Origin: an uncultured Ignavibacteriaceae bacterium
Lineage (GTDB): Bacteria; Bacteroidota; Ignavibacteria; Ignavibacteriales; Ignavibacteriaceae
Assembly: GCA_964617905.1 (NCBI GenBank)
Contig: CAZTZZ010000001.1
Location: 28,080-92,079, forward strand
DNA: 64,000 bases
Direction: 5' to 3'
Shown here piece after piece: positions 5,796-64,000 of this stretch. Every line of letters starts with the position of its first letter. Position 1 is the stretch's first letter. The translations under genes were made by a program, and so were the position numbers. The notes beneath the pieces were generated by a model. That model did not search any database and was not told where the DNA came from. It saw only the letters and a program-made list of their open reading frames with translations.

Positions 5796-6059
5796 ATGCA
5801 CATTAAACCGGTGTCTAATAAAGTTTATTTAGGAAACGATGTTCCAGAAAATGTTAAAGGCAAAAAGGAAATAAAAGAAAATAAAGTTCATGACAAGCTT
5901 GAATTGTCTGAAGAAGCAAAAAACATTCAAAAGAAACAAGTACCTGATAAAAATCTTGAAAAGATTAAAGCCAGAATTGATAGCAAATATTATGATTCTG
6001 AAGAGATAATTAATAAAGTTGCTGAGAAAATGTTAAAGGATATTAACTCCGAGGGATAA
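5796..6059 (+). CDS. flgM: Anti-sigma-28 factor FlgM
   Basis: 87 aa. DKLELSEEAKNIQ...NLEKIKARIDSKYYDSEEIINKVAEKML matches the FlgM C-terminal sigma-28-binding region (D.V.LS..A ... KV..IK.AI..G.Y.VD...IA..L). Confidence 0.75.
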   Translation: MHIKPVSNKVYLGNDVPENVKGKKEIKENKVHDKLELSEEAKNIQKKQVPDKNLEKIKARIDSKYYDSEEIINKVAEKMLKDINSEG

Positions 6060-10879: not shown

Positions 10880-10906
10880 TAAAGTAAGTTAAATATTTAT
10901 CGATAA
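10880..10906 (+). promoter_or_regulatory. Candidate sigma-28 promoter upstream of cheW
   Basis: TAAA (10880-10883), N15, ATCGATAA (10899-10906). It is intergenic and ends 28 nt upstream of the cheW ATG. Confidence 0.55.
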
Positions 10907-10933
10907 TACTTATTAACAAAAACTAAAAATTTT

Positions 10934-45635: not shown

Positions 45636-46933
45636 GAGTAATAAAAGAAATAGAATTATATTATGAGCCTTTTCACGAAACTCTGCCAATACTAACAAGA
45701 GATGCTGTATTAACAGGAATTAAACCGCTTAGTAAAAAATTCAAGGAAATCAGAAAATACGAAAAGAATAATAACTACGATAAATTTTCAGAACTATTTG
45801 CATTACAATATAGAATTAGCCGTTCCAGTGACTTTGTAGAATTAGAACAAATATTTTCGGGTTATGTAAAAAATTCATTAAAGTTTGCAGAAGCCAATTT
45901 GTTTTTTATAGATGAAAAATTTACTGTTATAGAATCCCTTTCTGGTAAAGAATCTTTTAAGACAAAAACATTTCTAAATACTTTACTTTCTTCAGGCGTA
46001 ATTAAACAATTGATTGAGAAAAAAAACAGTAAAATTCTTCCAGCCAATTTAGAGAAAAACAATAAAAAAGATAAAACTTTTTATTTGTTGATGCCTTTCT
46101 TTTTTAGTCCCAAAAATAATGGATGTCTAGTAGTTAAAGTTAATCCTACAATAACTACAAATTCACCGGAAATCAATTTACTTAAAATAGGGCTTGAAAT
46201 TATTTCAAAAAGAATTGAATTCCTGGATAAACAGAAAGAGCTAAAGAATGTTTATAACGACCTTCAATTATTCCAGTCCAAATTGGCGAATGATTATAAA
46301 CTATCTGCAATTGGAGAACTTACTACAGGTATTTTAGAAGACATACTATCACCCTTGCAGGTTATAACTAGTTATATAGATTTCATTAAAAAGGAAAATG
46401 ACCCGGATTATAATTCCGCACTTAATACAATTAACTTACAAGCAAAAAAAATAAACCGGGTTGTTAACAGGCTGATAAATTTTGCTAAACCCGTAGAAGG
46501 TAAACTTAAACTTCGCCCTTGTAATGTAAATGAAATAATTACGGAATTTTATAATATGGTTATCTCTACTCTGAAGAAAGATAACTATGAATGCATACTA
46601 GACCTTGATGAAAATATTCCGGGGATTCTTTCCCATCCTAATTACTTAAATCAAGCTTTGATGAACATGTTTCTTCTTTTAAAACCAGATGAAAACAAAG
46701 TGGGAGGTGTGTTGCTGCAAAGTAAGTATCGGGTTGGACAGGTACTTTTAAGACTTTTTACTACTGATTATTATAAAAATCTTGAGAAATGTAGCGTCAC
46801 GGATACAAATGACGTAAACATTAAAATTATTAAAAACATTATCTCTCAACACCAAGGGAAATTGGAAATAGATTCAGAAAAAAATAAGGGAACAATAATA
46901 ACTATTTCATTTCCAATAAAAAGGAAGATGTAA
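45632..46933 (+). CDS. Histidine-kinase-like protein with degenerate H-box and ATP-binding motifs (putative pseudokinase)
   Basis: The DHp-like segment reads LSAIGELTTGILEDILSPLQVI where kinases have G.AHE..NPL, placing Glu at the His position. The CA-like end (LNQALMNMFLLL ... NIKIIKNIISQHQGKLEIDSEKNKGTIITISFP) shows no DxGxG or GxGxG. The TTG start overlaps the HDOD stop. Confidence 0.55.
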   Translation: MRVIKEIELYYEPFHETLPILTRDAVLTGIKPLSKKFKEIRKYEKNNNYDKFSELFALQYRISRSSDFVELEQIFSGYVKNSLKFAEANLFFIDEKFTVIESLSGKESFKTKTFLNTLLSSGVIKQLIEKKNSKILPANLEKNNKKDKTFYLLMPFFFSPKNNGCLVVKVNPTITTNSPEINLLKIGLEIISKRIEFLDKQKELKNVYNDLQLFQSKLANDYKLSAIGELTTGILEDILSPLQVITSYIDFIKKENDPDYNSALNTINLQAKKINRVVNRLINFAKPVEGKLKLRPCNVNEIITEFYNMVISTLKKDNYECILDLDENIPGILSHPNYLNQALMNMFLLLKPDENKVGGVLLQSKYRVGQVLLRLFTTDYYKNLEKCSVTDTNDVNIKIIKNIISQHQGKLEIDSEKNKGTIITISFPIKRKM

Positions 46934-52347: not shown

Positions 52348-52800
52348 ATGGAAATGAGCGATTTGTTTAAGGCCCTTAAAGAGCAATATGAATTTCTTCA
52401 TGCTTATTTAGGTACTTTAATCCAACATCAAAAAGCTATAATAAGCGGCAACATTGAAGAGCTGGAAGAAACAATTAAAGGTGAGGGTGCTTTATTAATT
52501 ATTGTAGAAAATTATCAAAACAAAATTGTTGATGTAATTAAAAATTTATCCGATAAATATTTACTTAAACTACAAAATTATAAACTCTCTGATTTCATAG
52601 CCGCAATTAAACATGAAAACAAATATGATACTACCAGTCTTAGTAAAATGCAAGATTCTCTTGTCAAAATGGGGGATGAGATAATCAAAGTTAATAATCA
52701 AAATAAATTACTTGTAAATCAAGCAAGATATTTAATTAAAGAAACTATATCTACAATTGTGAATGAAAATAATGTGCCAATACTTGATAGGACAATTTAA
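52348..52800 (+). CDS. flgN: FlgN-like export chaperone (putative)
   Basis: 150-aa helical protein (LFKALKEQYEFLHAYLGTLIQHQKAIISGNIEELEE) immediately upstream of flgK-flgL. The call rests mainly on position and helical character. Confidence 0.5.
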   Translation: MEMSDLFKALKEQYEFLHAYLGTLIQHQKAIISGNIEELEETIKGEGALLIIVENYQNKIVDVIKNLSDKYLLKLQNYKLSDFIAAIKHENKYDTTSLSKMQDSLVKMGDEIIKVNNQNKLLVNQARYLIKETISTIVNENNVPILDRTI

Positions 52801-54158
52801 TGGGAATAAGCAGAATATTTAATATTGCACAAAAAAGTCTTTCGGTTTATCAGGGAGCGCTTGATGTAACTGCAAATAATATTGCCAATTCATCAAACCC
52901 AAATTATTCAAGACAGCGTGCAGTAATTACTAATGAAACTGCCCAGCAAATAGGCCATCTTTCTTGGGGTGTAGGTGTAAAACTGGATGATATACAAAGG
53001 GTTAGGGATTCTTTAATTGATCAGCAATTCCGTGCAAATAATCAACAATATTCTGATTTAGATCAGAGAAACATAATACTAAGTGAGATAGAAAATCTTT
53101 TTTCAGAACCATCGGATATCGGTCTGTCAAGTTTATCGACTGCATTTTATAATTCTTGGCAGCAACTTACAGTAACTCCTAATTCGGTAGTGTTGAGAAA
53201 TAATGTTATTCAAGCAGCACAAAATCTGAGCACTAAAATTAAAAATATAAATGATGGCTTAGATACAATAAAATCCAATATTGTATCGGAAACAACAGAC
53301 AAAGTAAATTCATTAAATTCAAATATAAAACAGATTCAAAGTTTAAATTCTCAAATTTTAAAAAGTAAATCTTCCGGTGTAAATGCAAATGATTTAATTG
53401 ATAAAAGAGATGAAGTGATTGATGATTTAAGTAAATTAGTTAACATTAGTGTCTCTTATGATTCTAACAATTCTGCTATTGTTACAATTGGAGGCGTATT
53501 TATAGCTGATAAGGCAAGTTTTGTTCAGTTTAAATCAACAGTAGAAGGTGGAAAATTAAAGATAACCTCTTCCGACGGAACTTCATCGCCAAATATAAAT
53601 AGCGGCCAGTTGTTTGCATTAACCGATACGTTTAATAAAACAATTCCGGGTTACCAATCATCACTTGACAGTTATATTAACAGTTTAGTTGATTCATTAA
53701 ATAAACAGCATACTAAAGGATACACAATTACAAACCCTCCGGTAACATCTGTTAATTTTTTTGACGGTTATGCTAATGGTGAACTTAAAATTAATTCACA
53801 AATACTTAATGATCCGAATAAAATAGCAATATCTAAAGACGGAACTTCAGGCAACGGTGATATTGCATTGAATATTGCCAATCTTTATACACAAAAAGAT
53901 GCGAACGGGGTAACGCTCCAAGATAATTATATAAATTTAATTGCACAAATTGGAAATGATAAAAAATCAGCAGCCGATTCTTCAAAAGCATATAAATTAT
54001 CAATAGATCATCTTCAAAAACAAAAGATATCTGTCTCCGGTGTTTCTATAGATGAAGAGATGTCAAATGTAATTCGATTTCAAAGGTCTTACGATGCATC
54101 GGCAAAATTAATTAAAGTAGCTGATGAAATGTTACAAATTCTTTTAAGAATGTTTTAG
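52800..54158 (+). CDS. flgK: Hook-filament junction protein FlgK (HAP1)
   Basis: IFNIAQKSLSVYQGALDVTANNIANSSNPNYSRQR and C-terminal VSIDEEMSNVIRFQRSYDASAKLIKVADEML. Confidence 0.92.
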   Translation: MGISRIFNIAQKSLSVYQGALDVTANNIANSSNPNYSRQRAVITNETAQQIGHLSWGVGVKLDDIQRVRDSLIDQQFRANNQQYSDLDQRNIILSEIENLFSEPSDIGLSSLSTAFYNSWQQLTVTPNSVVLRNNVIQAAQNLSTKIKNINDGLDTIKSNIVSETTDKVNSLNSNIKQIQSLNSQILKSKSSGVNANDLIDKRDEVIDDLSKLVNISVSYDSNNSAIVTIGGVFIADKASFVQFKSTVEGGKLKITSSDGTSSPNINSGQLFALTDTFNKTIPGYQSSLDSYINSLVDSLNKQHTKGYTITNPPVTSVNFFDGYANGELKINSQILNDPNKIAISKDGTSGNGDIALNIANLYTQKDANGVTLQDNYINLIAQIGNDKKSAADSSKAYKLSIDHLQKQKISVSGVSIDEEMSNVIRFQRSYDASAKLIKVADEMLQILLRMF

Positions 54159-54162
54159 AATT

Positions 54163-55419
54163 ATGAGAATAACTGACTTAATGTTAAATAATGATTTTGT
54201 TACGAATTTCAACAATTCAAAGACAAGAGTTAATGATCTTCAAACAAAAATCACAACCGGTAATAAATTTAATAAACCTTCGGACTCACCGGAAGGAACT
54301 TCCAGGTTACTCGGTTTAAAAAATCAAACATTACAAATTGATACGTTCAATAAAAATATTGAGAGTGGTTTATCGAATATGCAGGACACAATTACGGCAA
54401 TGGAAAGTATTCAGGGTGAGGTTACTGATGTAATGGTAAAATTAAGCAACCTTAGTAATGTTGCTGCAAGCAGCAATCTCAATAATTTTGCAGATCAAAT
54501 TGATGCTTCACTTAATGAGATATTAAACTTTTCTAATCTTAAATCTAATGGAAAATATTTATTTGGCGGTACTGATTTTTCTTCCGTTCCTTATGGCTTT
54601 TCATCGGATAAGTCAGCTATATTGGTAAAAGCAGGAGATGTATCAGGTAAACAATCAATAAGAACTTCTCAGAACACTTTTCAAAAAATTAATATGACAG
54701 GGACAGAAGTTTTTGGTACTATTGTAAATCAAAATGGAAATATTGATTCTACTACTGCGATTGGTTCAACGGTTACAAATCAAACTGATGTTTATGATGC
54801 TGCTGGTGTTAAATACACACTTAAAGTAGATTATAAAAAAACAGCGGCAAACAAATACACAATGAGTTACGATATTACCGATGGAAGCAACAACTCTGTT
54901 TTTACGCAGACACCTGCAACAAAAGCCTTGATTTTTAATTCAACTTCGGGTTATTTAGAAACAGTAGATGGTCAATCCCCCGAACAAATTCATATTAAGG
55001 CTGATAAAGCAAACATTGATTTTAATTTAGACCAAACTTCAATTAAAGTGGCAAGCGGAAGTTCTAGTCTTGCTTTTTCAGTAAATCAAAAAACTGACAT
55101 TTTTAATATCCTGCTTAATATTAGAAACGATCTTAGAGCCGGAAAAATTCCTACGGATGAACAGATAAAAAGTGTCTCTGATTTTAACAATCATTTATTA
55201 GACAACATTGCAAAAGCAGGAAATAATACCAATCAATTGAATAATGCTAAGGATGTGTTGAATAACCAGAAAACACAAATAGAAAAAGTTGCCGCCTCTA
55301 TTCAGGGGGTAGATATGGCAAAGGCTATAATGGATCTTCAAGCACAAAATTATTTATTGCAAGTTTCATATAAACTTGCTGCATCTATTTCAACAAAAAC
55401 ATTAATAGATTTTTTATGA
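54163..55419 (+). CDS. flgL: Hook-filament junction protein FlgL (HAP3)
   Basis: MRITDLMLNNDFVTNFNNSKTRVNDLQTKITTGNKFNKPSDSPEG and a flagellin-like C-terminus, VDMAKAIMDLQAQNYLLQVSYKLAASI. Confidence 0.88.
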   Translation: MRITDLMLNNDFVTNFNNSKTRVNDLQTKITTGNKFNKPSDSPEGTSRLLGLKNQTLQIDTFNKNIESGLSNMQDTITAMESIQGEVTDVMVKLSNLSNVAASSNLNNFADQIDASLNEILNFSNLKSNGKYLFGGTDFSSVPYGFSSDKSAILVKAGDVSGKQSIRTSQNTFQKINMTGTEVFGTIVNQNGNIDSTTAIGSTVTNQTDVYDAAGVKYTLKVDYKKTAANKYTMSYDITDGSNNSVFTQTPATKALIFNSTSGYLETVDGQSPEQIHIKADKANIDFNLDQTSIKVASGSSSLAFSVNQKTDIFNILLNIRNDLRAGKIPTDEQIKSVSDFNNHLLDNIAKAGNNTNQLNNAKDVLNNQKTQIEKVAASIQGVDMAKAIMDLQAQNYLLQVSYKLAASISTKTLIDFL

Positions 55420-56195
55420 TAAAAAAAGTAGGAACATTTTACGGACTTTTACTCGGGTTTCTTTCTATTTTCGGTGCCTTTATACTGGAAGGTGGGACAT
55501 TTAAATCATTGTTTTTAATTTCTCCTTTAATAATTGTTTTCGGTGGAACATTCTCGGCAATTATTATTGGGTTTGGATTTGACAGATTTAAAAATATACT
55601 ATCCCTGATAAAGTTAGCCTATTTCCCCCAAAAATATAATTTGAATAACATCATAAATAATTTGGTGGATTTTTCGATAATATCTAGAAAAGAAGGCTTA
55701 TTATCTATTGAAAAGAAAATAGATAGGTTGGAATATTTATTTCCCAAAAAGCTTATAAAATATGTTATTGACGGCTCAGAGGAAGATGCTTTGCAAAATC
55801 TTGCTGTATTAGAAATTAATGCAATGCAGGAAAGGCATTTTTCTAACATTTTTATTTTTACAAAAATGGGCGGATATGCCCCTACAATGGGAATTATAGG
55901 TACGGTGATGGGCCTGATTATGACACTTGCTGGTGCAAGCGGCGATCCAAGTTCTTTAATAAAAAATATCGCTTCTGCATTTATAGCAACATTATGGGGT
56001 GTTTTTAGTGCAAATATTTTATGGTTACCAATTGGTGATAAGTTAAAAAAATGTCATATGGAAGAGAAAAAAATGATGGAACTTTCTCTGGAGGGAGTGT
56101 TAGCCTTACAGAGCGGGGAGATTCCCTCGGTGGTAAAAGCCAGGTTAGTAAGCCTAATGCCACAAAAAGAGCAACAAAAAATGTTGAATCTTTAA
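55416..56195 (+). CDS. motA: Stator channel protein MotA, set 1
   Basis: Four TM segments. MGGYAPTMGIIGTVMGLI and ASAFIATLWGVFSANILWLPIGDKL are MotA/TolQ/ExbB family motifs. Followed by an OmpA-like MotB. Confidence 0.85.
   Translation: MIKKVGTFYGLLLGFLSIFGAFILEGGTFKSLFLISPLIIVFGGTFSAIIIGFGFDRFKNILSLIKLAYFPQKYNLNNIINNLVDFSIISRKEGLLSIEKKIDRLEYLFPKKLIKYVIDGSEEDALQNLAVLEINAMQERHFSNIFIFTKMGGYAPTMGIIGTVMGLIMTLAGASGDPSSLIKNIASAFIATLWGVFSANILWLPIGDKLKKCHMEEKKMMELSLEGVLALQSGEIPSVVKARLVSLMPQKEQQKMLNL
55654..55680 (+). promoter_or_regulatory. Sigma-28-like motif inside motA (set 1)
   Basis: TAAA (55654-55657), N15, TTCGATAA (55673-55680), in the sense orientation, 370-530 nt upstream of the possible motB starts. 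Confidence 0.25.
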
Positions 56196-56209
56196 ACTCT
56201 TCCGGACCT

Positions 56210-56905
56210 TTGTTTGACGAAGATAGCGAAAAAGATCGTTATCTAATTACATATGCTGATTTAATAACTTTATTATTAGGATTATTTATTATTTTATATT
56301 CTATTTCAAATATTGACACCGGCAAATACAAAAAAATGCTTTCCGCTATGGAGAGTGTATTTGGTAATAAAAACAAGGTTGTTTCTACTGAATCGAATGT
56401 TTTACCAAATATAAATTATAAGGATGGCATTTTAAAAACTAAATTAATTAAACTTATTGATAAATATAATTACGGTAATTCAATCAGATTAGATGAAAAT
56501 GAAAGGGGAATTACTATTCATATTTTAGAAAATATTCTCTTTGCCTCCGGTAATGCTATTCTGAATAATGGATCCAAAGAAGTTTTAAATAGACTTGCTG
56601 TCATTTTAAAAGAATTACCAAATGATATAAGGATTGAAGGGCATACCGACAATATACCTATCCATAATTCAATTTTTATTTCTAACTGGCACCTTTCTGT
56701 TACCCGGGCTTTAAATACCGCATATTATTTTATAAATAAACAAGGACTTTCAGCCGAAAAAATTTCAATAGTTGGTTATTCAAAATATAAACCTATTGAT
56801 AATAACAATTCCGTAAAAGGAAGAGCGAGTAATAGAAGAGTAGATATTGTAATAATAAGAGACACTAAAAATGGAAATAATAAAATATCAATTTGGAAAA
56901 ATTGA
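56210..56905 (+). CDS. motB: Stator protein MotB, set 1 (start uncertain)
   Basis: TM/plug region RYLITYADLITLLLGLFIILYSI. OmpA-like domain FASGNAILNNGSKEVL..IRIEGHTDNIPI..SNWHLSVTRAL..NRRVDIVI. The only in-frame ATG (56051) gives a 145-nt overlap with a motA C-terminus that looks genuine. A TTG at 56210 is the first canonical start after motA, but it has no obvious SD. Confidence 0.8.
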   Translation: MFDEDSEKDRYLITYADLITLLLGLFIILYSISNIDTGKYKKMLSAMESVFGNKNKVVSTESNVLPNINYKDGILKTKLIKLIDKYNYGNSIRLDENERGITIHILENILFASGNAILNNGSKEVLNRLAVILKELPNDIRIEGHTDNIPIHNSIFISNWHLSVTRALNTAYYFINKQGLSAEKISIVGYSKYKPIDNNNSVKGRASNRRVDIVIIRDTKNGNNKISIWKN

Positions 56906-56970: not shown

Positions 56971-57396
56971 ATGATTAATGAAGGAAAAAAAACAACTATA
57001 CTAATTGTTGATGATTCAGAGATAATAATAAGAGTACTGAAACATTTTTTTAAAGATTATAATATTGAACTTTTGACAAGTAAAAATGGACTTGAAGGAA
57101 TTGAAATGGCTGAAAAATATAAACCGGCATTAATTTTTTTGGATATTATGATGCCGAATATTGATGGAATTAAGGTGCTGCAGATATTGAAAATATTTGA
57201 AAGTATTAAAAAGATACCTGTAATAGTAATAAGCGGAAATACTAATCGTGAAAATACAATGACATCCATAGAAGCAGGTGCAGAAAGAATAATGTCAAAA
57301 CCGTTAGATAAAAATGTTGTTATAAAATTTATCAATGAAATTTTAGGTAGTAATTTTCTAGAAAAACTTAAAAAAACAAGAATAGCTGAGGCATAA
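56971..57396 (+). CDS. Single-domain response regulator (REC), paralogue of the REC in 58136-58861
   Basis: ILIVDDSEIII..LIFLDIMMPNIDGIKVL..PVIVISGNTNR..IEAGAERIMSKPL. Confidence 0.85.
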   Translation: MINEGKKTTILIVDDSEIIIRVLKHFFKDYNIELLTSKNGLEGIEMAEKYKPALIFLDIMMPNIDGIKVLQILKIFESIKKIPVIVISGNTNRENTMTSIEAGAERIMSKPLDKNVVIKFINEILGSNFLEKLKKTRIAEA

Positions 57397-57494: not shown

Positions 57495-57875
57495 ATGAAA
57501 ATAAAAACATACCAATTTGGCGAAATTGAATATAAACAGGAACACCTGATCAATTTTTCATCAGGTTTATTTGGTTTTGAACATCTGAAGGAATTCCTGC
57601 TAATAAAAATTGAAGAAGAATTATTTTATTGGCTTACTTCTGTAGAAAAGCCTGAAATAATTTTCCCTTTAATCGGGGTAAGAGCGATTGATGATAAATA
57701 TCCCGAGGTGGAAAAACATGAAGCCTTCGGTATAGTTACGTTGAATTCTGATTTATTAAATGTTACTGTCAATCTGAAATCACCTGTTTATATTGATGAG
57801 GGAACAAAAACCGGTTTTCAGAAAATATTAGATTCTGAAACATACAAAGTAGAATATAACTTATTTAAACAATGA
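57495..57875 (+). CDS. fliW: Flagellar assembly factor FliW (CsrA antagonist)
   Basis: FGEIEYKQEHLINFSSGLFGFEHLKEFLLI...FYWLTSVEKPEIIFPLI...VTVNLKSPVYI, immediately upstream of csrA. Confidence 0.85.
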   Translation: MKIKTYQFGEIEYKQEHLINFSSGLFGFEHLKEFLLIKIEEELFYWLTSVEKPEIIFPLIGVRAIDDKYPEVEKHEAFGIVTLNSDLLNVTVNLKSPVYIDEGTKTGFQKILDSETYKVEYNLFKQ

Positions 57876-57891
57876 TGAGTGTGGATTATAT

Positions 57892-58149
57892 ATGCTTGTT
57901 TTAACTAGAAAGACTGATGACGAAATAAAGATTAATTCGGAAATTACAATAAAAGTATTGGCAATATCTGAAGGACAGGTAAAACTTGGTATTTCGGCTC
58001 CGGATAACGTAGAAATATACAGAGGTGAGATCTACGAAAAAATTAGGCAAGCAACTATCGAAGCTTCTGAAAGTAGTAAACTAAAGCCTAAAGACTTATC
58101 AGCTTTATTAGTAAATAAAATCAGGAAAATAAAAAATGATAAACGATGA
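57892..58149 (+). CDS. csrA: Carbon storage regulator CsrA
   Basis: MLVLTRKTDDEIKINSEITIKVLAISEGQVKLGISAPDNVEIYRGEIYEKI. Confidence 0.93.
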   Translation: MLVLTRKTDDEIKINSEITIKVLAISEGQVKLGISAPDNVEIYRGEIYEKIRQATIEASESSKLKPKDLSALLVNKIRKIKNDKR

Positions 58150-58861
58150 AAAAAAATTGACGATTCTTGTTGTAGATGATTCAGATTTAATAAGGACCTC
58201 ACTAAAAACATTTTTTGGTGACTATAACATAAAAGTTATTACAAGTAATGACGGGTTGGACGGCATTCAAAAGGCTGTTAAATATAAACCGTCATTAATA
58301 TTTCTTGACTTATTGATGCCGAATTTTGACGGCATAAAAATGCTTCAGGTAATTAAAGTTCTCGATCATATAAAAGTTATACCTGTAATAGTAATAAGCG
58401 GAAATACAAATAGAACAAATGTAATTGCGTCATTAGAAGCAGGTGCAGAAAGAGTAATCTCAAAACCGTTAAAAAAAGAAATATTGTTAAAAAACATAAA
58501 TGAAATTTTAGGCAGTAATTTCCTAAAGAACGCTAAATTATCTTCAAAGGAATCCAATGTTAATAATGATGAATTAAAACAAAAATTAACGGAATCATTT
58601 TTAAATACTTTTTCCGATAGAAAAAATATTATTGAAAGATCTTTGTTTAATCATAATGTAGCGGAAATACAAAAAATAGCTCACGAATTAAAAGGTGAAG
58701 GAGGGATGATTGGGTTAAATAAATTAAGTTTATTAGGCGGAAAAATTGAAGATCATCTTTCTAAAAAAGATATTGATTGGAATAATATAAAAAAAATGTA
58801 CAATCAAGTATTTGCAATAGTATCTAACTTAGAAGAATTAAATTTTAAAAATATGGAATAA
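58136..58861 (+). CDS. REC-Hpt fusion protein
   Basis: REC (ILVVDDSDLIR..LIFLDLLMPNFDGIKML..PVIVISGNTNR..LEAGAERVISKPL) plus a C-terminal Hpt motif, IAHELKGEGGMIGLNKL. The ATG overlaps the last 14 nt of csrA. Confidence 0.8.
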   Translation: MINDEKKLTILVVDDSDLIRTSLKTFFGDYNIKVITSNDGLDGIQKAVKYKPSLIFLDLLMPNFDGIKMLQVIKVLDHIKVIPVIVISGNTNRTNVIASLEAGAERVISKPLKKEILLKNINEILGSNFLKNAKLSSKESNVNNDELKQKLTESFLNTFSDRKNIIERSLFNHNVAEIQKIAHELKGEGGMIGLNKLSLLGGKIEDHLSKKDIDWNNIKKMYNQVFAIVSNLEELNFKNME

Positions 58862-58864
58862 ATT

Positions 58865-59719
58865 GTGTTTGTAATAGTCGGCATAGTAGTAGTAGTTTTA
58901 TCAATAGCTGTAGGTTTTTTAATTGCAGGAGGAAATTTATTATTGCTCATTCAATGGTCAGAATTCCTTGTAATTGGCGGAGCTGCACTTGGTAGTCTTT
59001 TAATTTCTGCACCTCTTTCTTTATTAAAAAAAATCTTTGCGGAAATTCTTAAAATTTTAAAACCGGACCATTTTAACAAAGAAGATTATCTGGAATTACT
59101 AAAATCATTTAATGAATTATTCCAGATAGCACAAAGAGATGGATTAATTTCAATAGAATCACATATTGAAGAACCACAGGAAAGCGAGATATTGTCAAAG
59201 AACAAAAAATTTGTTGAAAATGAAATGCTTCGAAATTTCTTTTCCGATACTATGAAAGTTATGCTTTCGGGAGGTGTTCCTCCTCACGAACTCGAAGATT
59301 TAATTGATACAGAAATAGAAACATTTGAGTTGGAGAATAAACCTATAGGCGGAACAATTGCAAAAGTTGGAGATTCTTTACCCGGGTTGGGTATTGTTGC
59401 TGCCGTATTAGGAATTATAGTTACAATGGGTTCAATTAACGAAGGAGCCGAAGTGGTAGGGCATCACGTTGCTTCTGCTCTTGTTGGTACTTTTTTAGGT
59501 GTTTTAATGGCTTATGGATTTGTTAATCCTCTGGCTTCTAATGTTGAGCACAGTTTTGAAAATAAAACCAGGTTACTACAAACAATTAAATCTTGTATTG
59601 TTGCTTTTGCCAAAGGAAATCCACCGATTGTAGCTGTAGAAATTGCAAGAAGGACAATCTTTTCTGATAACAGACCAACATTTAGTGAATTAGAAAATTA
59701 TGTAAGAGGGAAAAAATAA
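58865..59719 (+). CDS. motA: Stator channel protein MotA, set 2 (proteobacterial-type)
   Basis: 284 aa. GDSLPGLGIVAAVLGIIVTMGSI and HHVASALVGTFLGVLMAYGFVNPLA. GTG start. Confidence 0.85.
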   Translation: MFVIVGIVVVVLSIAVGFLIAGGNLLLLIQWSEFLVIGGAALGSLLISAPLSLLKKIFAEILKILKPDHFNKEDYLELLKSFNELFQIAQRDGLISIESHIEEPQESEILSKNKKFVENEMLRNFFSDTMKVMLSGGVPPHELEDLIDTEIETFELENKPIGGTIAKVGDSLPGLGIVAAVLGIIVTMGSINEGAEVVGHHVASALVGTFLGVLMAYGFVNPLASNVEHSFENKTRLLQTIKSCIVAFAKGNPPIVAVEIARRTIFSDNRPTFSELENYVRGKK

Positions 59720-59722
59720 GTA

Positions 59723-60505
59723 ATGTCCGAAGAGAAAAGCAGCCAACCGATAATTGTTAAGAAAATAAACAAGCATGGAGGACATCACGGCGGTGCGTGG
59801 AAGGTTGCTTATGCTGACTTTGTTACGGCTATGATGGCATTATTTATTGTTTTATGGATATTAGGACAAGATCAAAAAATCAGAAATTCTGTTGCCCACT
59901 ATTTTAAAAACCCAATTGGATTTTCTAATAAAGGAAAGAATATTTTAGTTGGTGATAATTCCGGTTTATCAGGGGCTAATGATGCACAAAAAAACAGCAA
60001 ATTAATATCCCGATTACAAGAAATGAAAATTTTAAGAGAAATGGGCGAGAAACTTCTGGGGGAATTAAAAAAAAATGAAACTTTTAAATCTCTGGCCGGA
60101 CAAATAAAAATTGATTTTGTTAAAGAAGGTTTAAGGATAGAAATATTAGAATCATCTAAAGACTTTTTTTTTGAAATAGGTACGGCTAAACTTAAAAAAT
60201 CAGCAAGACTTCTTTTAGCACAAATTGGAAATAACCTTGCGAAATTACCGAATAAAATAATTTTACAGGGTCACACAGATTCACGCCCTTATTCAGGAGG
60301 AGGTAAAGGTTATACTAATTTTGAACTGAGTGCAGACAGAGCAAATTCGGCAAGACGAGCTTTAATTGCCGACAGTTTATCTGAAAAACAAATATTCGAA
60401 GTTAATGGTTTTGCTGATAGTAAATTAAGAGACCCCAAACATCCATACAGTTTTATAAACAGACGAATAAGTATTATAGTCAAATATACGGACGAAGGAA
60501 AATGA
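59723..60505 (+). CDS. motB: Stator protein MotB, set 2
   Basis: HHGGAWKVAYADFVTAMMALFIVLWIL, closely resembling the E. coli MotB N-terminus. OmpA-like LQGHTDSRPY..NFELSADRANSARRAL..NRRISIIV. Confidence 0.88.
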   Translation: MSEEKSSQPIIVKKINKHGGHHGGAWKVAYADFVTAMMALFIVLWILGQDQKIRNSVAHYFKNPIGFSNKGKNILVGDNSGLSGANDAQKNSKLISRLQEMKILREMGEKLLGELKKNETFKSLAGQIKIDFVKEGLRIEILESSKDFFFEIGTAKLKKSARLLLAQIGNNLAKLPNKIILQGHTDSRPYSGGGKGYTNFELSADRANSARRALIADSLSEKQIFEVNGFADSKLRDPKHPYSFINRRISIIVKYTDEGK

Positions 60506-60894
60506 AAAAAATTCTTGTTGTGGAAGATAATCAGTTAATTATTGATTTTTATAAAATTATTCTAAAAAATGCCGGTTATTATCCTGTTGTTCTTGAGGAC
60601 GGAGAAAAAATTATGAGTTTACTGGCTCAAGATGAGGTTAGTTTAATTATTATGGATATAAACTTGGGCAATTGTTATCTTTCAGGTGAAAAAATTGATG
60701 GTATCAAACTTTCTAATCATATAAAGCAAGATGTAAGGTTCTTTAGTATTCCATTAATAATGGTTTCTGCCTATACACCTGATATTTTAGAAGGAAGGAT
60801 TGATGGCAACTACAAACCGGATTGTTTTTTGACTAAACCAATTTTAGATTTTGACATATTAATTAATAAAATAAATCAGTTAGTATTAAATTGA
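60502..60894 (+). CDS. Single-domain response regulator with an insertion after the phospho-acceptor Asp
   Basis: ILVVEDN..LIIMDINLGNCYLSGEKIDGIKL..LIMVSAY..FLTKPI. ATGA overlap with motB set 2. Confidence 0.8.
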   Translation: MKKILVVEDNQLIIDFYKIILKNAGYYPVVLEDGEKIMSLLAQDEVSLIIMDINLGNCYLSGEKIDGIKLSNHIKQDVRFFSIPLIMVSAYTPDILEGRIDGNYKPDCFLTKPILDFDILINKINQLVLN

Positions 60895-61544
60895 ATACGA
60901 ATAAAATTCTCGTTGTGGAAGATGAAAAGGATACACTTTTTATCTTAGAAAGGCTCCTTTTGAAAAATAATTACCAGGTTTTTACTGCAACCAACGGTCA
61001 GGAAGCACTAGAGATGCTAAAAAAAATGATGCCAGATGTAATTATTGCAGATTGGACTATGCCGATAATAGATGGGATTGAATTGTGCGATATTATTAAA
61101 AAAGATGAAAAATACAAACTGATTTATTTTATATTATTAACTGCAAGGGCTTCTTTGAAAGACCGAGTTGCGGGTTTAGATATTGGTGCAGATGATTTTC
61201 TTGTAAAACCGGTTCAGAATCAAGAAATTATGGCACGAATTAGGTCAGGTATTAGAATTCATAATTTACAGAATGAATTAAAAAGAATTGAACATGGTAA
61301 AGTACTTTTAGAGATGGCAGCAACAATCGGTCATAAAATTAATAATCCTTTAAGCAGCTTGTTGATGACTATTAAAAGTCTTGAAGATGATTTAAAAAAT
61401 GATGAAAATAAATTTGAAGAGGATTTTCAAATAATTAATGCATCTATTGAAAGAATTAAAAAGCTTGCGAACGACCTTTCCCAAATTAAAGTTCCGGAAA
61501 TAATTGATTACACAGCCGATAGCAAAATGATAAAATTAGAATAG
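60891..61544 (+). CDS. REC + DHp (HisKA-like) protein with no ATPase domain
   Basis: REC (ILVVEDEKD..VIIADWTMPIIDGIEL..FILLTA..FLVKPV), then LLEMAATIGHKINNPLSSLLMTI (H-box). The protein ends about 70 aa later with no N/G1/G2 boxes. The TTG start overlaps the previous stop. Confidence 0.75.
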   Translation: MNTNKILVVEDEKDTLFILERLLLKNNYQVFTATNGQEALEMLKKMMPDVIIADWTMPIIDGIELCDIIKKDEKYKLIYFILLTARASLKDRVAGLDIGADDFLVKPVQNQEIMARIRSGIRIHNLQNELKRIEHGKVLLEMAATIGHKINNPLSSLLMTIKSLEDDLKNDENKFEEDFQIINASIERIKKLANDLSQIKVPEIIDYTADSKMIKLE

Positions 61545-61589
61545 CTGCCCTTAATATTTTACCCATTTTTTCGATTATAAGGTAGGGAA

Positions 61590-62252
61590 ATGGGTATGTT
61601 AGATAAAATTAATAAAATAAATTCAGGCAGTGATTTTTCTAAATCAACGGGACCTAAAGTATACAGATCAGGTATTCACTCAAAGAATAAACCTGAAATA
61701 GATTATCATGATTCTGTTGATATCTCTCCTGCATTTAAATATATAATTAACGTTAACTGGAGATTAAAAAATTTTAAATATGATAAAGATGAAAAATTAT
61801 TAATTGATTTTATTGTTTCCGGTATTGAATTTCAATTGTCCGTTGATTTAATGAATTATAAAAACCTTTCTTCTTTTAATTATAGGTTATATAAAGTTGT
61901 GGTAAAAGGTACGGAAAATTATAAGATTGTTGCGGATGTTAATTCTAAGATTGAATCGATAAATTATGAACATGATTCAGAGTTATTAAATTTTTCAGCG
62001 TTAAATATATTCTTTAACCGTATTTTTGAGCAAAATATTTATGTTGGTCTAATTAAAGATGACAAATATTTCTTTGATGATTTACTTGAAGGAATTTTTC
62101 AAGGAATTAAAGAAGAATTTAAGCAACTAAATAACCAGGTACTTGTTTTTTTTAATAGGTTAACAGGAAAAAAAATTCTAAATAATATCTCAACAAATCA
62201 AGATTATCTTGAGCCAATATTGATTAAAAAAATTAAAATTATAGATGTCTGA
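61590..62252 (+). CDS. Hypothetical protein
   Basis: 220-aa ORF with no recognisable motif. An alternative ATG lies at 61596. Its stop overlaps the start of the following kinase gene. Confidence 0.4.
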   Translation: MGMLDKINKINSGSDFSKSTGPKVYRSGIHSKNKPEIDYHDSVDISPAFKYIINVNWRLKNFKYDKDEKLLIDFIVSGIEFQLSVDLMNYKNLSSFNYRLYKVVVKGTENYKIVADVNSKIESINYEHDSELLNFSALNIFFNRIFEQNIYVGLIKDDKYFFDDLLEGIFQGIKEEFKQLNNQVLVFFNRLTGKKILNNISTNQDYLEPILIKKIKIIDV

Positions 62253-64000
62253 AATCATTCCCCCAAAAAATTTGTATAATACAACTTATAATGATATACT
62301 TACTGAAGTTGAATCGTTTGATGTGTTGCCGGAAAGTGATCCGTTAATAGTTGTAGATGATTCTTGTGAAGTAATGTTTTCTAATAATTCATTTAAGAAA
62401 ACGTTTCGCTTAAATAACGAGCAAGATTTTTTTAACTTAACAACCGAACCCGATCTTAAAGCATTGGTTAAAAATTTAAGCAGTAGAAACTACACCAACT
62501 TTCAGATTGATTTGACCATATCATCAGAAAATGATTTTGATGGTAATCTATTCAATTTGGAATTAGAACGGCTTACCCTTGAAAACAAAAAATACAACAC
62601 AATTAAGTTAAAATCATTAAAAGAAAATTCCAGATTTGAAGAGAGAATTAATAACCTTCATTTTGCGCTTGAATATGGGAAAGTTCCTGTAATATTTATT
62701 GATAAAGACGGAATAATAAAATATTCAACTGCTTTTTTTGAAGATATATTAAAATTTAATATCGAAGAATTATTTAATAAGTCTATCTCGGAAGTATTGT
62801 TTGAATTTCTAACTTATAAGGAAAAAGATCGTTTTGATAAAGCTATTCTTGATAAAAAAGAATGGTCGAAAACAATTTCAAGAAAATTAGTGAATGGAAA
62901 CGTGGAATATTATGATTTAAAACTTCTGCCTATTTATAAAGGAGTGGATGATAAACCAAGTTTTCTTTTAACAGCTAATGATATAACTGATTATGTATTG
63001 AAAAACTTATTCGTAAAAAAATCTGAAAAAAGACTTAAATCAATTATTAATAATATTACTGACCTGTTATTGATATTTCAGAAAAAAGGTAACGAATACT
63101 TATTTGAAAATGCTAATGATAATTTCTGCAAATCGTTTTCTATTGATAAAAATAAAGTATTAAGGAAAAATCTTAATTTATTTTTAGATAAGTCTTTCTT
63201 TCTACAACTTCAACTTTCAATTCAAGAATTTTATACAAGTAAAAGTATGATTGTTGAATTTAACTATAGAAGTAAACAAAACAGAACATTCAGCGCTAAG
63301 ATTACTTTTATAGGGCCTAAATCATTTGACAATACGTTGTATATATTAAGTATGGAAGATATAACAGATCAGGTTTTATACAGGGAGCAACTTGAAATAG
63401 CTTATAAGAAAGAAATTAATCTAAATAAACTTAAGACAGCTTTTCTTGAAAATATGTCTCACGAAATACGGACACCTTTCAATGCTATACTTGGCTATTC
63501 AGATATAATTGATGATTGCATAAAGGATAAAGATTATGAAACTATTTTGGAATTGATGTCTTCTTTTAAAGATGTTTTAAACAGAGTACTTAAGTTGTTT
63601 AATAATATTGATGAAGTTTTTCAAATTACCTCCGGTGAATTGGAGTTAGATTTTGTTACACTTAATATTAACCAGGTGTTAAAAGCAGTATATAATAAAA
63701 GGATTCAAGAAGTAACTAGTAAAAACCTAGATTTCAAATTGGAGCTTTATAAAAATGATTTGTGCATTGATACTGACTGGGTAAAATTTGAAAAAATTAT
63801 AAACTCTCTTATAGATAACGCAATTAAGTATACTAATGAAGGACGTATAAAATTAATTTCAAGATTCTTAAATGATAAAGCCGAAATAGTAATTTCCGAT
63901 ACAGGCAAAGGAATTAAGACGGAAAATATGAAAAAGTTATTTGAACCATTTGTACAAGAGGAAGAAGCTTATATAAGAAACTATGAAGGTGCAGGTCTTG
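62245..64000 (+). CDS. PAS-type sensor histidine kinase, 3'-truncated at the window edge
   Basis: Not in the ORF track because no stop is reached. From the ATG at 62245 I saw no in-frame stop to the window end. The translation contains PAS-like segments (VPVIFIDKDGIIKYSTAFFEDIL), H-box FLENMSHEIRTPFNAILGYSD, N-box LIDNAIKYT and G1 ISDTGKGI. The window ends within G2 (GAGL). Confidence 0.75.
   Translation, partial: MSEIIPPKNLYNTTYNDILTEVESFDVLPESDPLIVVDDSCEVMFSNNSFKKTFRLNNEQDFFNLTTEPDLKALVKNLSSRNYTNFQIDLTISSENDFDGNLFNLELERLTLENKKYNTIKLKSLKENSRFEERINNLHFALEYGKVPVIFIDKDGIIKYSTAFFEDILKFNIEELFNKSISEVLFEFLTYKEKDRFDKAILDKKEWSKTISRKLVNGNVEYYDLKLLPIYKGVDDKPSFLLTANDITDYVLKNLFVKKSEKRLKSIINNITDLLLIFQKKGNEYLFENANDNFCKSFSIDKNKVLRKNLNLFLDKSFFLQLQLSIQEFYTSKSMIVEFNYRSKQNRTFSAKITFIGPKSFDNTLYILSMEDITDQVLYREQLEIAYKKEINLNKLKTAFLENMSHEIRTPFNAILGYSDIIDDCIKDKDYETILELMSSFKDVLNRVLKLFNNIDEVFQITSGELELDFVTLNINQVLKAVYNKRIQEVTSKNLDFKLELYKNDLCIDTDWVKFEKIINSLIDNAIKYTNEGRIKLISRFLNDKAEIVISDTGKGIKTENMKKLFEPFVQEEEAYIRNYEGAGL

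What the first reader, a model, noticed from the sequence alone, without database searches (positions are those of the whole stretch)
58865..61544. Second stator operon translationally coupled to a REC and a REC-DHp protein
motA2 and motB2 are followed without gaps by two signalling genes. One is a stand-alone REC whose ATG overlaps the motB2 stop (ATGA). The other is a REC fused to an H-box helix (ATIGHKINNPL) with no ATPase domain, and its start overlaps the previous stop.

Immediately upstream, 4 nt away, sits a REC-Hpt gene. Downstream lies a PAS histidine kinase. Together these supply the parts of a phosphorelay (kinase, Hpt, several receivers, a DHp-only module) packed around one of two stator sets.

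The stator regulators I know of are c-di-GMP brakes and clutch proteins. I know of no described receiver proteins co-translated with MotB. The arrangement suggests phosphorylation-dependent recruitment, braking or swapping of this stator.
Basis: partly seen in the sequence, partly recalled or inferred. Interest (0 to 1): 0.7.

Follow-up and report, generated by a model that had tools for sequence, protein, structure and literature searches.

The report
Stator genes wired to a phosphorelay
In Ignavibacteria the genes for the main flagellar stator are almost always fused into one tightly packed unit with several two-component signalling proteins, including a receiver joined to a kinase-less, probably phosphatase-only histidine module, which points to an undescribed motility control pathway whose target (stator, rotor or something else) remains unproven.

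Summary
REC-Hpt (58136-58861), motA2, motB2, a single-domain REC (ATGA overlap with motB2) and a 217-aa REC-HisKA protein with no ATPase domain (TTGA overlap) lie head to tail. An unknown 220-aa gene and a soluble PAS kinase follow. The organism is an Ignavibacterium.

The arrangement is conserved: 68 of 72 species genomes seeded on REC-DHp have the full set, and 39 of 39 metagenome loci seeded on MotA2 have motB2 followed by REC-DHp.

New points:
- MotA2B2 is the E. coli-type stator and the one always kept; MotA1B1 is missing from some clusters.
- The DHp box is H-(K/Q/R)-x-x-N in about 124 of 125 loci. The kinase-essential acidic residue is lost and the phosphatase-essential Asn is invariant.
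- The REC-to-His spacing is a fixed 42 residues, as in Rec-controlled kinases.
- The unknown gene and the kinase have their own conserved sigma-28-type promoter.
- Three genomes keep REC-DHp next to fliA with no mot genes at the locus.

Most likely this is a flagellar-regulon phosphorelay with a REC-gated phosphatase. Direct stator control is possible but unsupported: E. coli motAB-cheAW shows the same packing without it. I rate it a new variant of a known kind, of moderate interest.

The parts
58136..58861 (+). REC-Hpt protein (241 aa). It looks like the detached REC-Hpt C-terminal half of an unorthodox kinase.
   Evidence: Pfam Response_reg and Hpt. It aligns over residues 5-230 with the REC-Hpt ends of BarA, LetS and TorS. 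The acidic pair, the phospho-Asp, the Ser, the Lys and the Hpt His are conserved in at least 95% of 72 sequences. The junction to motA2 is at most 15 nt or overlapping in 101 of 114 loci.
58865..59719 (+). motA2, an E. coli-type stator A subunit (284 aa, GTG start).
   Evidence: NCBIfam TIGR03818 MotA equivalog scores 333.8, above the 303.8 cut-off. It is 35% identical to E. coli MotA, gapless over 284 residues, with E98, P173 and P222 kept and an Arg at 91. Median identity across loci is 72%.
59723..60505 (+). motB2, an E. coli-type stator B subunit (260 aa).
   Evidence: Pfam MotB_plug and OmpA. The best NCBIfam match is PRK09041 MotB at 7.9e-74, 248.4 bits, which is below that model's curated cut-off of 277. 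It is 36% identical to E. coli MotB and keeps the channel Asp (WKVAYADF).
60502..60894 (+). Single-domain receiver (130 aa). Its ATG overlaps the motB2 stop.
   Evidence: Pfam Response_reg 3.9e-12. E8, D9, D52, T/S89 and K112 are present in essentially all of 105 distinct orthologues (103-105), and a 7-residue insertion after the phospho-Asp is conserved. The closest solved structure is DivK, and no CheY equivalog match reaches its cut-off. It is absent from a sublineage: 7 of 39 MotA2-seeded loci.
60891..61544 (+). REC-DHp protein (217 aa, TTG start overlapping the REC stop). It is a Rec-controlled DHp dimer without a catalytic ATPase domain.
   Evidence: Pfam Response_reg and HisKA. The AF2 model shows a REC fold, a continuous helix 108-149, two further helices and a short beta tail. 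The fold search finds receivers only. The H-box is G-H-(K/Q/R/N)-x-N-N-P-L, with an acidic H+1 residue in 1 of about 125 loci. The K106-H148 spacing is 42 residues with no gaps. Median identity is 67%.
61550..61578 (+). Conserved sigma-28 (FliA)-type promoter in the REC-DHp/unknown spacer: CTTAA-N16-TCGATTAT.
   Evidence: A spacer longer than 15 nt (most often 45-58 nt) is present in 99 of 99 loci. The motif T.AA-N-TTCGAT(A/T)AT is at least 80% conserved in 82 distinct spacers. The same consensus CTAAA-N15-YCGATAAT lies before the flagellin gene, the FlgM-like ORF and cheW in the window.
61590..62252 (+). Conserved protein of unknown function (220 aa), translationally coupled to the kinase.
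   Evidence: No Pfam or NCBIfam match even at E=10. The AF2 model is unusable (pLDDT 34.5). It is present in 103 loci at a median 30% identity, with an invariant HDSxxISPA motif. It overlaps the kinase start in 55 of 74 loci.
62245..64000 (+). Soluble PAS histidine kinase, 5' part (runs off the window; 624 aa in a near-identical contig).
   Evidence: Pfam PAS, HisKA and HATPase_c. The H-box SHEIRTP is of the canonical kinase-competent type. The full length, and a convergent MCP gene after it, are seen in L085.
55416..56905 (+). Context: motA1 (55416-56195) and motB1 (TTG at 56210-56905), the MotCD/MotPS-type stator.
   Evidence: The best NCBIfam matches are PRK08124/PRK09109 for MotA1 and MotD PRK09038 for MotB1. 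The start was fixed from the sequence and the L085 gene call. Both genes are absent from the cluster in L074, L079, L084, L128, L129 and L150.

Best explanation
This is the distal end of the class-wide Ignavibacteria flagellar and chemotaxis super-cluster. An E. coli-type proton stator (MotA2B2) is co-expressed, by overlapping or near-touching reading frames, with the components of a CheA-independent multistep phosphorelay.

Most likely flow (inferred):
1. The soluble PAS kinase is made with its unknown partner from a separate sigma-28-type promoter. It autophosphorylates and passes phosphate to the receiver of REC-Hpt.
2. REC-Hpt and the kinase together amount to a split BarA/TorS-type unorthodox kinase.
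3. The Hpt histidine then feeds the terminal receivers: the single-domain REC and the receiver of REC-DHp.

REC-DHp is a Rec-controlled histidine-kinase core that has lost its ATPase domain and its kinase-essential acidic residue, but keeps the histidine and the phosphatase-essential Asn. Phosphorylation of its receiver would zip the fixed 42-residue (six-heptad) linker. That would switch the DHp dimer into a phosphatase or phosphate sink for a partner receiver (the single-domain REC and/or REC-Hpt), a reset device analogous to CheZ or CheX.

The output is a protein-protein contact with the flagellar motor. By analogy with every characterised single-domain receiver, the rotor switch is the more likely target, and the stator is a possible one.

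Shown: gene order, coupling, domains, catalytic residues, the promoter motif and conservation. Inferred: the direction of phosphate flow, the phosphatase role and the target.
For: Structure of the locus:
- Domain architecture and junctions.
- Class-wide synteny: 68 of 72 REC-DHp-seeded genomes and 39 of 39 MotA2-seeded loci.
- Conserved overlaps at the gene junctions.

Competence of the parts:
- All receivers and the Hpt keep their catalytic residues.
- REC-Hpt aligns to the REC-Hpt end of BarA, LetS and TorS.
- The kinase has a canonical H-E-x-x-T box.

REC-DHp as a phosphatase:
- Its box is H-(K/Q/R/N)-x-x-N in about 124 of 125 loci.
- Willett and Kirby showed that the acidic H+1 residue is needed only for kinase activity and the T/N at H+4 only for phosphatase activity (PMC3510030).
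- There is no ATPase domain.
- The REC-to-His spacing is 42 residues, invariant even in 40-50% identical relatives. This fits the multiple-of-seven alphaS rule of Rec-controlled kinases (PMC13269768).

Link to the flagellum:
- A sigma-28-type promoter lies before the unknown gene and the kinase.
- None of these response regulators has a DNA-binding domain.
- REC-DHp (median 67% identity) is as conserved as MotA2 (72%) and far more so than typical signalling partners (REC 42%, kinase 42%). This suggests contact with a conserved machine.
Against: - There is no biochemical or genetic evidence.
- The direction of phosphate flow is assumed.
- The histidine of the DHp is invariant, which phosphatase activity alone would not require. 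This also fits a phosphotransferase role.
- Some lineages lack the single-domain REC (7 of 39 loci). One divergent lineage lacks both it and the adjacent kinase (L150). The proposed substrate and input are therefore not universal.
- REC-DHp persists beside fliA in three genomes whose locus has no flagellar genes, so a motor is not strictly needed for its retention.
- Distant REC-DHp relatives sit in non-flagellar contexts.
- The AF2 model is only moderate (pLDDT 65.7, below 50 for residues 85-137).
Confidence: 0.45

Rival explanations
1. One reading: the receivers act directly on the stator. Phosphorylated REC or REC-DHp binds the MotA2 cytoplasmic loop or the MotB2 N-terminus and recruits, brakes or exchanges MotA2B2 units.
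For: - Gene fusion-like packing with motB2 is conserved in more than 100 loci.
- REC-DHp follows motB2 in 39 of 39 MotA2-seeded loci.
- REC-DHp is as conserved as MotA2.
- The REC is not a CheY orthologue and carries a conserved insertion near the active site.
- A literature search found no receiver-stator regulator, so this would be new.
Against: - Context alone is weak evidence. E. coli motA-motB-cheA-cheW has the same tight junction, and there the signal goes to the rotor.
- The module is complete where only one stator is in the cluster, so exchange cannot be its core function.
- REC-DHp is retained without motA2B2 in L028, L050 and L054.
- Every characterised single-domain receiver that acts on a motor binds the switch complex (established knowledge of CheY and Cle proteins; PMC5677366 listed).
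Confidence: 0.18
2. REC-DHp is a Spo0B/ChpT-like histidine phosphotransferase. Its His148 receives phosphate from a receiver (its own or the single-domain REC) and passes it to another response regulator, for example REC-Hpt, the sigma-54 activator at 6878-8275, or a CheY.
For: - His148 is invariant in the 15-sequence alignment, and the G-H...N-P-L box is found in nearly all of about 125 loci.
- Loss of the ATPase domain and of the kinase-essential acidic residue is what a pure transfer module would show.
- The locus holds three or four receivers and two His modules.
Against: - The invariant Asn at H+4 is the phosphatase signature.
- Spo0B and ChpT keep a C-terminal pseudo-ATPase alpha/beta domain, whereas here only about 20 residues follow the helices.
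- An Hpt module is already present for the His2 step.
Confidence: 0.2
3. Co-regulation only, with a non-motor output. The module is a late flagellar-regulon signalling circuit that controls something else, such as FliA/sigma-28-dependent expression, CsrA-FliW, or a lifestyle switch. It sits behind motB2 simply because that operon has the right timing.
For: - REC-DHp sits directly after the fliA orthologue (56-65% identity) in L028, L050 and L054, and after a sigma-70-family factor of similar size in the P0158 contig (orthology to fliA not tested there), with no flagellar genes at the locus.
- The Rec-controlled kinase LvrB signals to an anti-sigma factor (PMC13269768).
- The locus also holds csrA and fliW.
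- There is the E. coli mocha operon precedent.
Against: - Association with motA2B2 is near-universal where flagellar genes exist.
- The sigma-28 promoter before the kinase is lost in L028.
- A canonical FlgM-like gene exists elsewhere in the window, so no missing anti-sigma role needs filling.
Confidence: 0.15
4. Split kinase: the His-less, ATPase-like pseudokinase at 45632-46933 phosphorylates the ATPase-less REC-DHp in trans, as CheA4 phosphorylates CheA3 in Rhodobacter sphaeroides.
For: Both carry the same HEINNPL-type DHp box subfamily. One lacks the His (GILEDILSPL) and the other lacks the ATPase.
Against: - The pseudokinase's HATPase match is below Pfam threshold (20.7 against 26.4 bits), and by eye it lacks the DxGxG and GxGxG nucleotide-binding boxes (sequence).
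- REC-DHp lacks the acidic residue needed for His phosphorylation by ATP.
Confidence: 0.03

Closest known systems
E. coli/Salmonella 'mocha' operon motA-motB-cheA-cheW
   Same: E. coli-type MotAB genes are followed within a few bases by two-component signalling genes in one late flagellar transcription unit. In K-12, motA and motB overlap by 4 nt and the motB-cheA gap is 4 nt. MotA2 and MotB2 are 35-36% identical to the E. coli proteins.
   Different: The signalling genes here are not CheA and CheW. They are a single-domain receiver, a REC-DHp protein and an upstream REC-Hpt. A complete CheA/W/Y/Z/R/B set lies about 40 kb upstream in the same cluster.
Rec-controlled histidine kinases (LvrB of Leptospira, REC-alphaS-DHp-CA)
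   Same: An N-terminal receiver is joined through a continuous helix to a HisKA DHp. The KP-to-His spacing is a multiple of seven (42), as reported for this class.
   Different: There is no CA/ATPase domain. The acidic residue next to the His is replaced by K, Q or R. A conserved about 20-residue C-terminal tail (PExIxYxxDxKMIKLD) replaces the catalytic domain.
HisKA bifunctional kinase/phosphatase DHp domains (CrdS, HK853, EnvZ)
   Same: The H-box fold and the conserved T/N at H+4 that is required for phosphatase activity.
   Different: The kinase half is missing altogether. The protein would be a constitutive non-kinase whose phosphatase state is set by its own receiver.
Spo0B / ChpT histidine phosphotransferases
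   Same: A dimeric helical His module without kinase activity, inside a multi-receiver relay.
   Different: Those proteins keep a degenerate ATPase-like domain and have no receiver. They are not HisKA by sequence (established knowledge; not tested here beyond length and Pfam).
Unorthodox kinases BarA/GacS/TorS/ArcB (HK-REC-Hpt)
   Same: REC-Hpt aligns with their REC-Hpt ends. Together with the PAS kinase it supplies the H1-D1-H2 steps.
   Different: The module is split into two genes in two transcription units that flank the stator genes.
Known stator or motor modulators: YcgR/PilZ brakes, MotI, EpsE clutch, Cle CheY-like proteins, CheY
   Same: Small soluble proteins that tune motor output. 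Cle and CheY are single-domain receivers.
   Different: There is no PilZ, glycosyltransferase or Cle-type match in the region. The REC does not reach any CheY equivalog cut-off. None of the known modulators is co-translated with MotB.

Membership tests
Flagellar stator MotA/MotB (E. coli type) | MotA matches the curated MotA equivalog model above its cut-off | tested here: met
   TIGR03818 scores 333.8 bits against a cut-off of 303.8, covering residues 1-281.
Flagellar stator MotA/MotB (E. coli type) | Functional residues: MotA rotor-facing charges (R90/E98), P173 and P222; MotB channel Asp32, plug and OmpA-like peptidoglycan-binding domain | tested here: met
   In a gapless alignment with E. 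coli MotA, E98, P173 and P222 are identical, and the Arg is shifted by one position (Q90-R91). MotB keeps YADF and has Pfam MotB_plug and OmpA.
Flagellar stator MotA/MotB (E. coli type) | Generates torque on the flagellar rotor | not testable with these tools
   Indirect evidence only. It lies inside the flagellar cluster and is the only stator in some clusters.
Response-regulator receiver domain (phosphorylatable) | Acidic pair, phospho-acceptor Asp, Thr/Ser and Lys at the canonical positions | tested here: met
   REC: E8, D9, D52, T/S89 and K112 in essentially all of 105 sequences (103-105). REC-DHp: E10, D11, D54, T84 and K106 are invariant. REC-Hpt: conserved in at least 95% of 72 sequences.
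Histidine kinase (HisKA family) | Phospho-acceptor His in a HisKA DHp | tested here: met
   Pfam HisKA 38.8 bits against a cut-off of 26.9. H148 is invariant.
Histidine kinase (HisKA family) | Catalytic ATP-binding (HATPase_c) domain | tested here: not met
   No Pfam match. The protein ends 20 residues after the DHp. The model shows helices plus a short beta tail, and the fold search returns receivers only.
Histidine kinase (HisKA family) | Acidic residue at H+1, required for autophosphorylation | tested here: not met
   The residue is K, Q, R or N in about 124 of 125 loci and E in one. The rule is from PMC3510030.
HisKA phosphatase-competent DHp | Thr/Asn at H+4 | tested here: met
   N152 is invariant (NNPL). 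Phosphatase activity itself was not tested.
Rec-controlled histidine kinase (LvrB type) | REC joined to the DHp by a coiled-coil alphaS whose length is a multiple of seven | tested here: met
   K106 to H148 is 42 residues with no gaps in the family, and the same 42 in P0133, P0166, P0224 and P0251. The model has a continuous helix 108-149. The rule is from PMC13269768.
Rec-controlled histidine kinase (LvrB type) | DHp followed by a CA domain that is released on activation | tested here: not met
   No CA domain.
Spo0B/ChpT phosphotransferase | Helical His bundle plus a C-terminal pseudo-ATPase alpha/beta domain, with no receiver | tested here: not met
   A receiver is present, and only an about 20-residue tail follows the helices.
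Hpt phosphotransfer domain | Pfam Hpt above threshold, with a His in an HxxKG motif | tested here: met
   33.2 bits against a cut-off of 24.6. AHELKGEGG is present, with the His conserved in at least 95%.
CheY chemotaxis regulator | Match to a CheY equivalog model above its cut-off | tested here: not met
   No CheY model appears among the best matches for the 130-aa REC. It is 29% identical to E. coli CheY over 89 residues, with a 7-residue insertion. The best solved relative is DivK. Two CheY-sized single-domain receivers lie at 16703 and 17080, between cheR and cheZ; they were not scanned against CheY models.
c-di-GMP brake / clutch (YcgR, MotI, EpsE) | PilZ or glycosyltransferase domain | tested here: not met
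   No such Pfam or NCBIfam match in any gene from 58136 to 64000, and none in the unknown gene even at E=10.

The most novel reading that the evidence does not exclude
A receiver-based, phosphorylation-dependent regulator of the stator itself. The REC-DHp dimer (or the single-domain REC), made stoichiometrically with MotB2, docks on the MotA2 cytoplasmic domain and gates stator engagement or ion flow. The DHp-only module acts as a REC-gated phosphatase. This would be the first two-component control of a flagellar stator and the first function for ATPase-less Rec-DHp proteins.
Probability: 0.15. Interest if true: 0.85.

Novelty: new variant of a known kind. Interest (0 to 1): 0.5.

Why it matters
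Known fast controls of flagellar motors are CheY at the rotor switch and c-di-GMP brakes or clutches. A CheA-independent phosphorelay that is genetically welded to the main stator across a whole bacterial class would add a new input to motor control, whether it turns out to act on the rotor or on the stator.

It also gives a first testable function for a widespread but uncharacterised architecture: a receiver plus a HisKA DHp with no ATPase. The residue pattern (His kept, acidic residue lost, Asn kept, linker fixed at six heptads) predicts a receiver-switched phosphatase.

The natural deletions and the one-stator genomes found here already narrow the hypotheses.

Tried and rejected
- **Cryptic ATPase in REC-DHp.** Rejected on length, Pfam, the AF2 model and the fold search.
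- **MotA2B2 as a non-flagellar MotAB-like motor.** Rejected by the MotA equivalog score, the conserved residues, and its being the only stator in some clusters.
- **The unknown 220-aa protein as an FlgM-like anti-sigma factor** (its DSVDISPA motif resembles the FlgM box). There is no Pfam FlgM match even at E=10, and a canonical-looking FlgM ORF lies at 5796-6059. Dropped.
- **The unknown protein as PilZ.** The motifs do not fit and there is no match. Its structure prediction failed (pLDDT 34.5), so no fold search was run. The homology search returned only 12 relatives, none named beyond 'hypothetical protein'.
- **Sigma-70 promoter and terminator scans of 52-64 kb.** At or below chance, so uninformative.
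- **Exact look-ups of several window proteins.** These failed; the source contig is not indexed under these exact products.
- **Relatives outside Ignavibacteria.** The 50%-identity library shows the whole stator-linked family as one cluster. The next REC-DHp relatives are in non-flagellar contexts. No motB-REC-DHp adjacency was found outside this class, but no unbiased survey of all phyla was possible.
- **Literature.** No paper on receiver proteins acting on stators, or on REC-DHp-only proteins, was found. The I. album genome paper mentions only 'signal transduction' genes in the 71-gene cluster.
- **Sigma-28 promoter in the reduced locus L028.** Not retained.

Full report
**1. What is in the sequence**

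The last 12 kb of the window is one run of + strand genes:

| Gene | Coordinates |
|---|---|
| flgK | 52800-54158 |
| flgL | 54163-55419 |
| motA1 | 55416-56195 |
| motB1 | 56210-56905 |
| extra REC | 56971-57396 |
| fliW | 57495-57875 |
| csrA | 57892-58149 |
| REC-Hpt | 58136-58861 |
| motA2 | 58865-59719 |
| motB2 | 59723-60505 |
| REC | 60502-60894 |
| REC-HisKA | 60891-61544 |
| 45-nt spacer | 61545-61589 |
| unknown 220-aa gene | 61590-62252 |
| PAS histidine kinase | 62245 to the end of the window |

The ATG of REC overlaps the motB2 stop as ATGA. The REC-HisKA start, a TTG, overlaps the REC stop as TTGA.

Small corrections:
- The REC-Hpt/motA2 gap is 3 nt, not 4.
- An unknown gene, coupled to the kinase by an 8-nt overlap, lies between REC-HisKA and the PAS kinase.

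The rest of the window is a giant flagellar and chemotaxis cluster. It contains flagellin, a FlgM-like ORF, a sigma-54 activator, cheW, an MCP gene, cheR, two CheY-sized receivers, cheZ, cheA, cheB, the fli/flh/flg genes, fliA and two HDOD genes. The receivers near the stator are therefore additional to a full Che system.

**2. Organism and conservation**

Homologues of REC-HisKA number 2429. The best 120 are 67-100% identical, about 217 aa long, and named as Ignavibacteria wherever a name exists.

- A scan of one genome per GTDB species found a relative in 222 genomes. The 80 best are all Ignavibacteria-type bins.
- Of the 72 loci with enough upstream sequence, 68 carry the full REC-Hpt/motA2/motB2/REC/REC-DHp set in this order.
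- Because that sample was seeded on REC-DHp, I ran the reverse test from MotA2 in metagenomes. All 39 loci with enough downstream sequence have motB2 followed by REC-DHp, 32 of them with the single-domain REC in between.
- Junction statistics over about 110 loci: motB2->REC overlaps in 73 of 110 and is within 15 nt in 106 of 110. REC->REC-DHp overlaps in 83 of 114. REC-DHp->unknown always has a spacer longer than 15 nt, most often 45-58 nt (99 of 99). Unknown->kinase overlaps in 55 of 74.

**3. The stator**

- MotA2 passes NCBI's MotA equivalog model (333.8 against 303.8 bits). MotB2 best matches E. coli-type MotB at 248.4 bits, below that model's cut-off of 277.
- MotA2 aligns without a gap to E. 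coli MotA at 35% identity. E98, P173 and P222 are kept, and there is an Arg at position 91.
- MotB2 keeps the channel Asp.
- MotA1B1 is instead of the MotC/MotD/MotPS type.
- In L074, L079, L084, L128, L129 and the more divergent L150, the cluster goes straight from flgL to fliW with no motA1B1, yet the signalling genes still bracket motA2B2.

The 'second' stator is thus the primary, always-retained one. Stator swapping cannot be the core function of the module.

**4. The signalling proteins**

All receivers keep the acidic pair, the phospho-acceptor Asp, the Thr/Ser and the Lys. The Hpt His is conserved.

- *REC-Hpt* aligns with the REC-Hpt C-terminal ends of BarA, LetS and TorS.
- *The 130-aa REC* is not a CheY orthologue. 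Its closest solved relative is DivK, and it carries a conserved 7-residue insertion after the phospho-Asp.
- *REC-HisKA* has no ATPase. Only 20 residues follow the DHp. The AF2 model (pLDDT 65.7) shows a receiver, a continuous helix 108-149, two more helices and a short beta tail. The fold search finds receivers only.
- *Its H-box* is G-H-K-I-N-N-P-L. Across about 125 loci the residue after the His is K (84), Q (28), R (5), N (3) or E (1), while the His and the NNPL are constant. Willett and Kirby showed for four HisKA kinases that the acidic H+1 residue is needed only for kinase activity and the Thr/Asn at H+4 only for phosphatase activity (PMC3510030). This family has therefore systematically lost the kinase determinant and kept the phosphatase determinant.
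- *The distance from the receiver's K106* to H148 is 42 residues with no indel in the family. It is also 42 in relatives only 40-50% identical. Rec-controlled kinases such as LvrB use a coiled-coil linker whose length is a multiple of seven to transmit receiver phosphorylation to the DHp (PMC13269768). REC-HisKA is best described as a Rec-controlled kinase core stripped of its catalytic domain.
- *Conservation.* It is as conserved as MotA2 (median 67% against 72%) and much more so than REC (42%), the kinase (42%) or the unknown protein (30%).

**5. A second transcription unit**

The spacer before the unknown gene carries a motif conserved in 82 distinct spacers: T.AA-N15/16-TTCGAT(A/T)AT. In the window it lies at 61550-61578.

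It matches the sigma-28 consensus and the other CTAAA-N15-YCGATAAT sites in the window, which lie before the flagellin gene, the FlgM-like ORF and cheW. The unknown gene and the PAS kinase are therefore probably a FliA-dependent unit of their own. REC and REC-DHp have no room for a promoter and are read with motB2. In a near-identical contig the kinase is 624 aa and is followed by a convergent MCP gene, so the cluster ends there.

**6. Natural experiments that cut against a strictly stator-bound role**

- In L028 the order is cheR, fliA orthologue (65% identity), REC, REC-DHp, kinase.
- In L050 and L054 the order is two large kinases, fliA orthologue (56-57%), REC-DHp.
- None of the three has a flagellar structural gene or mot gene within 10 kb, yet REC-DHp is still 68-70% identical.
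- A similar sigma/REC-DHp/REC-DHp arrangement surrounds P0158.
- More distant REC-DHp proteins sit next to a small kinase or a lone receiver in unrelated contexts.
- A sublineage lacks the single-domain REC. L150 lacks both it and the kinase. The minimal conserved core is REC-Hpt, MotAB, REC-DHp and the unknown protein.

**7. Interpretation**

The tight packing of signalling genes behind motB has a textbook precedent. In E. coli K-12, motA and motB overlap by 4 nt and cheA starts 4 nt after motB, yet CheA signals to the rotor through CheY. Context therefore proves co-expression, not a stator target.

My best reading (confidence 0.45) is a CheA-independent phosphorelay of the flagellar regulon:
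1. The PAS kinase passes phosphate to REC-Hpt, which passes it to the terminal receivers.
2. REC-DHp acts as a receiver-switched phosphatase or sink.
3. The output is a protein contact at the motor.

Rival readings:

| Reading | Confidence |
|---|---|
| Direct stator control | 0.18 |
| Spo0B-like phosphotransfer role | 0.20 |
| Non-motor output linked to FliA | 0.15 |
| Split kinase with the His-less pseudokinase at 45632-46933 | 0.03 |

**8. Novelty**

[quoted passage not shown] Literature searches found no receiver-stator regulator and no study of ATPase-less REC-DHp proteins.

The parts are all known kinds. The combination, its class-wide fixation to the main stator, and the kinase-dead, phosphatase-competent Rec-DHp module are new. 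I rate it a new variant of a known kind, with interest 0.5.

Noticed in passing
window 56971-57396: An extra single-domain receiver sits right after motB1. It is 64% identical in protein to the receiver half of REC-Hpt, down to the GSNFL tail. It is absent from all 140 other loci examined, including relatives at 86-90% identity, and present only in the near-identical contig L085. This looks like a very recent duplication that gives the first stator its own trailing receiver.
   Followed up: partly
window 61550-61578, also 2293-2320, 5670-5698, 10880-10907, 28397-28424 and 31159-31186: Sigma-28-type promoter motifs (CTAAA-N15/16-YCGATAAT). They lie before the flagellin gene, the FlgM-like ORF, cheW and the unknown-kinase pair. 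Two lie inside coding regions upstream of the hook-length and hook genes. The pattern TAAA-N14-16-CCGATA gives 5 matches against 0.6 expected.
   Followed up: partly
window 45632-46933 (after two HDOD paralogues at 43862-44740 and 44751-45635): A 433-aa kinase-like protein. Its HEINNPL-type box reads GILEDILSPL, so there is no phospho-acceptor His. Its HATPase match is below threshold, and by eye it has no DxGxG or GxGxG boxes. It is a likely pseudokinase embedded in the flagellar cluster downstream of fliA.
   Followed up: partly
L028 7876-12292; L050 and L054 2474-10645: These are collapsed versions of the cluster. L028 reads cheR-fliA-REC-REC-DHp-kinase. L050 and L054 read kinase-kinase-fliA-REC-DHp. 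The genes keep the same relative order as in the window but all flagellar structural genes are gone, which looks like regulatory relics of flagellar loss.
   Followed up: partly
L002/L018 5163-6619; L031, L051 and L075 motA1 region: motA1 is truncated or frameshifted and motB1 is split into two ORFs in several long-read MAGs, while motA2B2 is intact. This is either decay of the MotCD-type stator or homopolymer sequencing errors.
   Followed up: no
window 5796-6059: An 87-aa ORF with FlgM-like motifs (DKLELSEEAKNI; KIKARIDSKYYDSEEIINKVAEKML), preceded by a sigma-28-type motif. Pfam gave no match at E<=0.001.
   Followed up: partly
window 8302-10683 (minus strand): A REC-PAS-PAS-HisKA-HATPase protein, that is, a full Rec-controlled kinase. 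It is one of the very few large minus-strand ORFs in the 64-kb cluster (the others of 100 aa or more listed overlap + strand genes). It is adjacent to a sigma-54 activator response regulator (6878-8275). It is a possible further partner of the relay.
   Followed up: no
REC-DHp C-terminus, window about 61488-61541; P0133, P0158, P0166, P0224, P0251, P0139, P0277: A short tail after the DHp (P-E-x-I-x-Y-x-x-D-x-K-M-I-K-L-D, predicted as a beta hairpin) is recognisable in REC-DHp proteins only 40-50% identical, and in REC-REC-DHp and REC-GGDEF-REC-DHp proteins. It may be an undescribed small module that replaces the catalytic domain.
   Followed up: partly
L037, L038 and L049, about 6430-7970: Two tandem REC-Hpt genes lie upstream of motA2 in one sublineage.
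   Followed up: no
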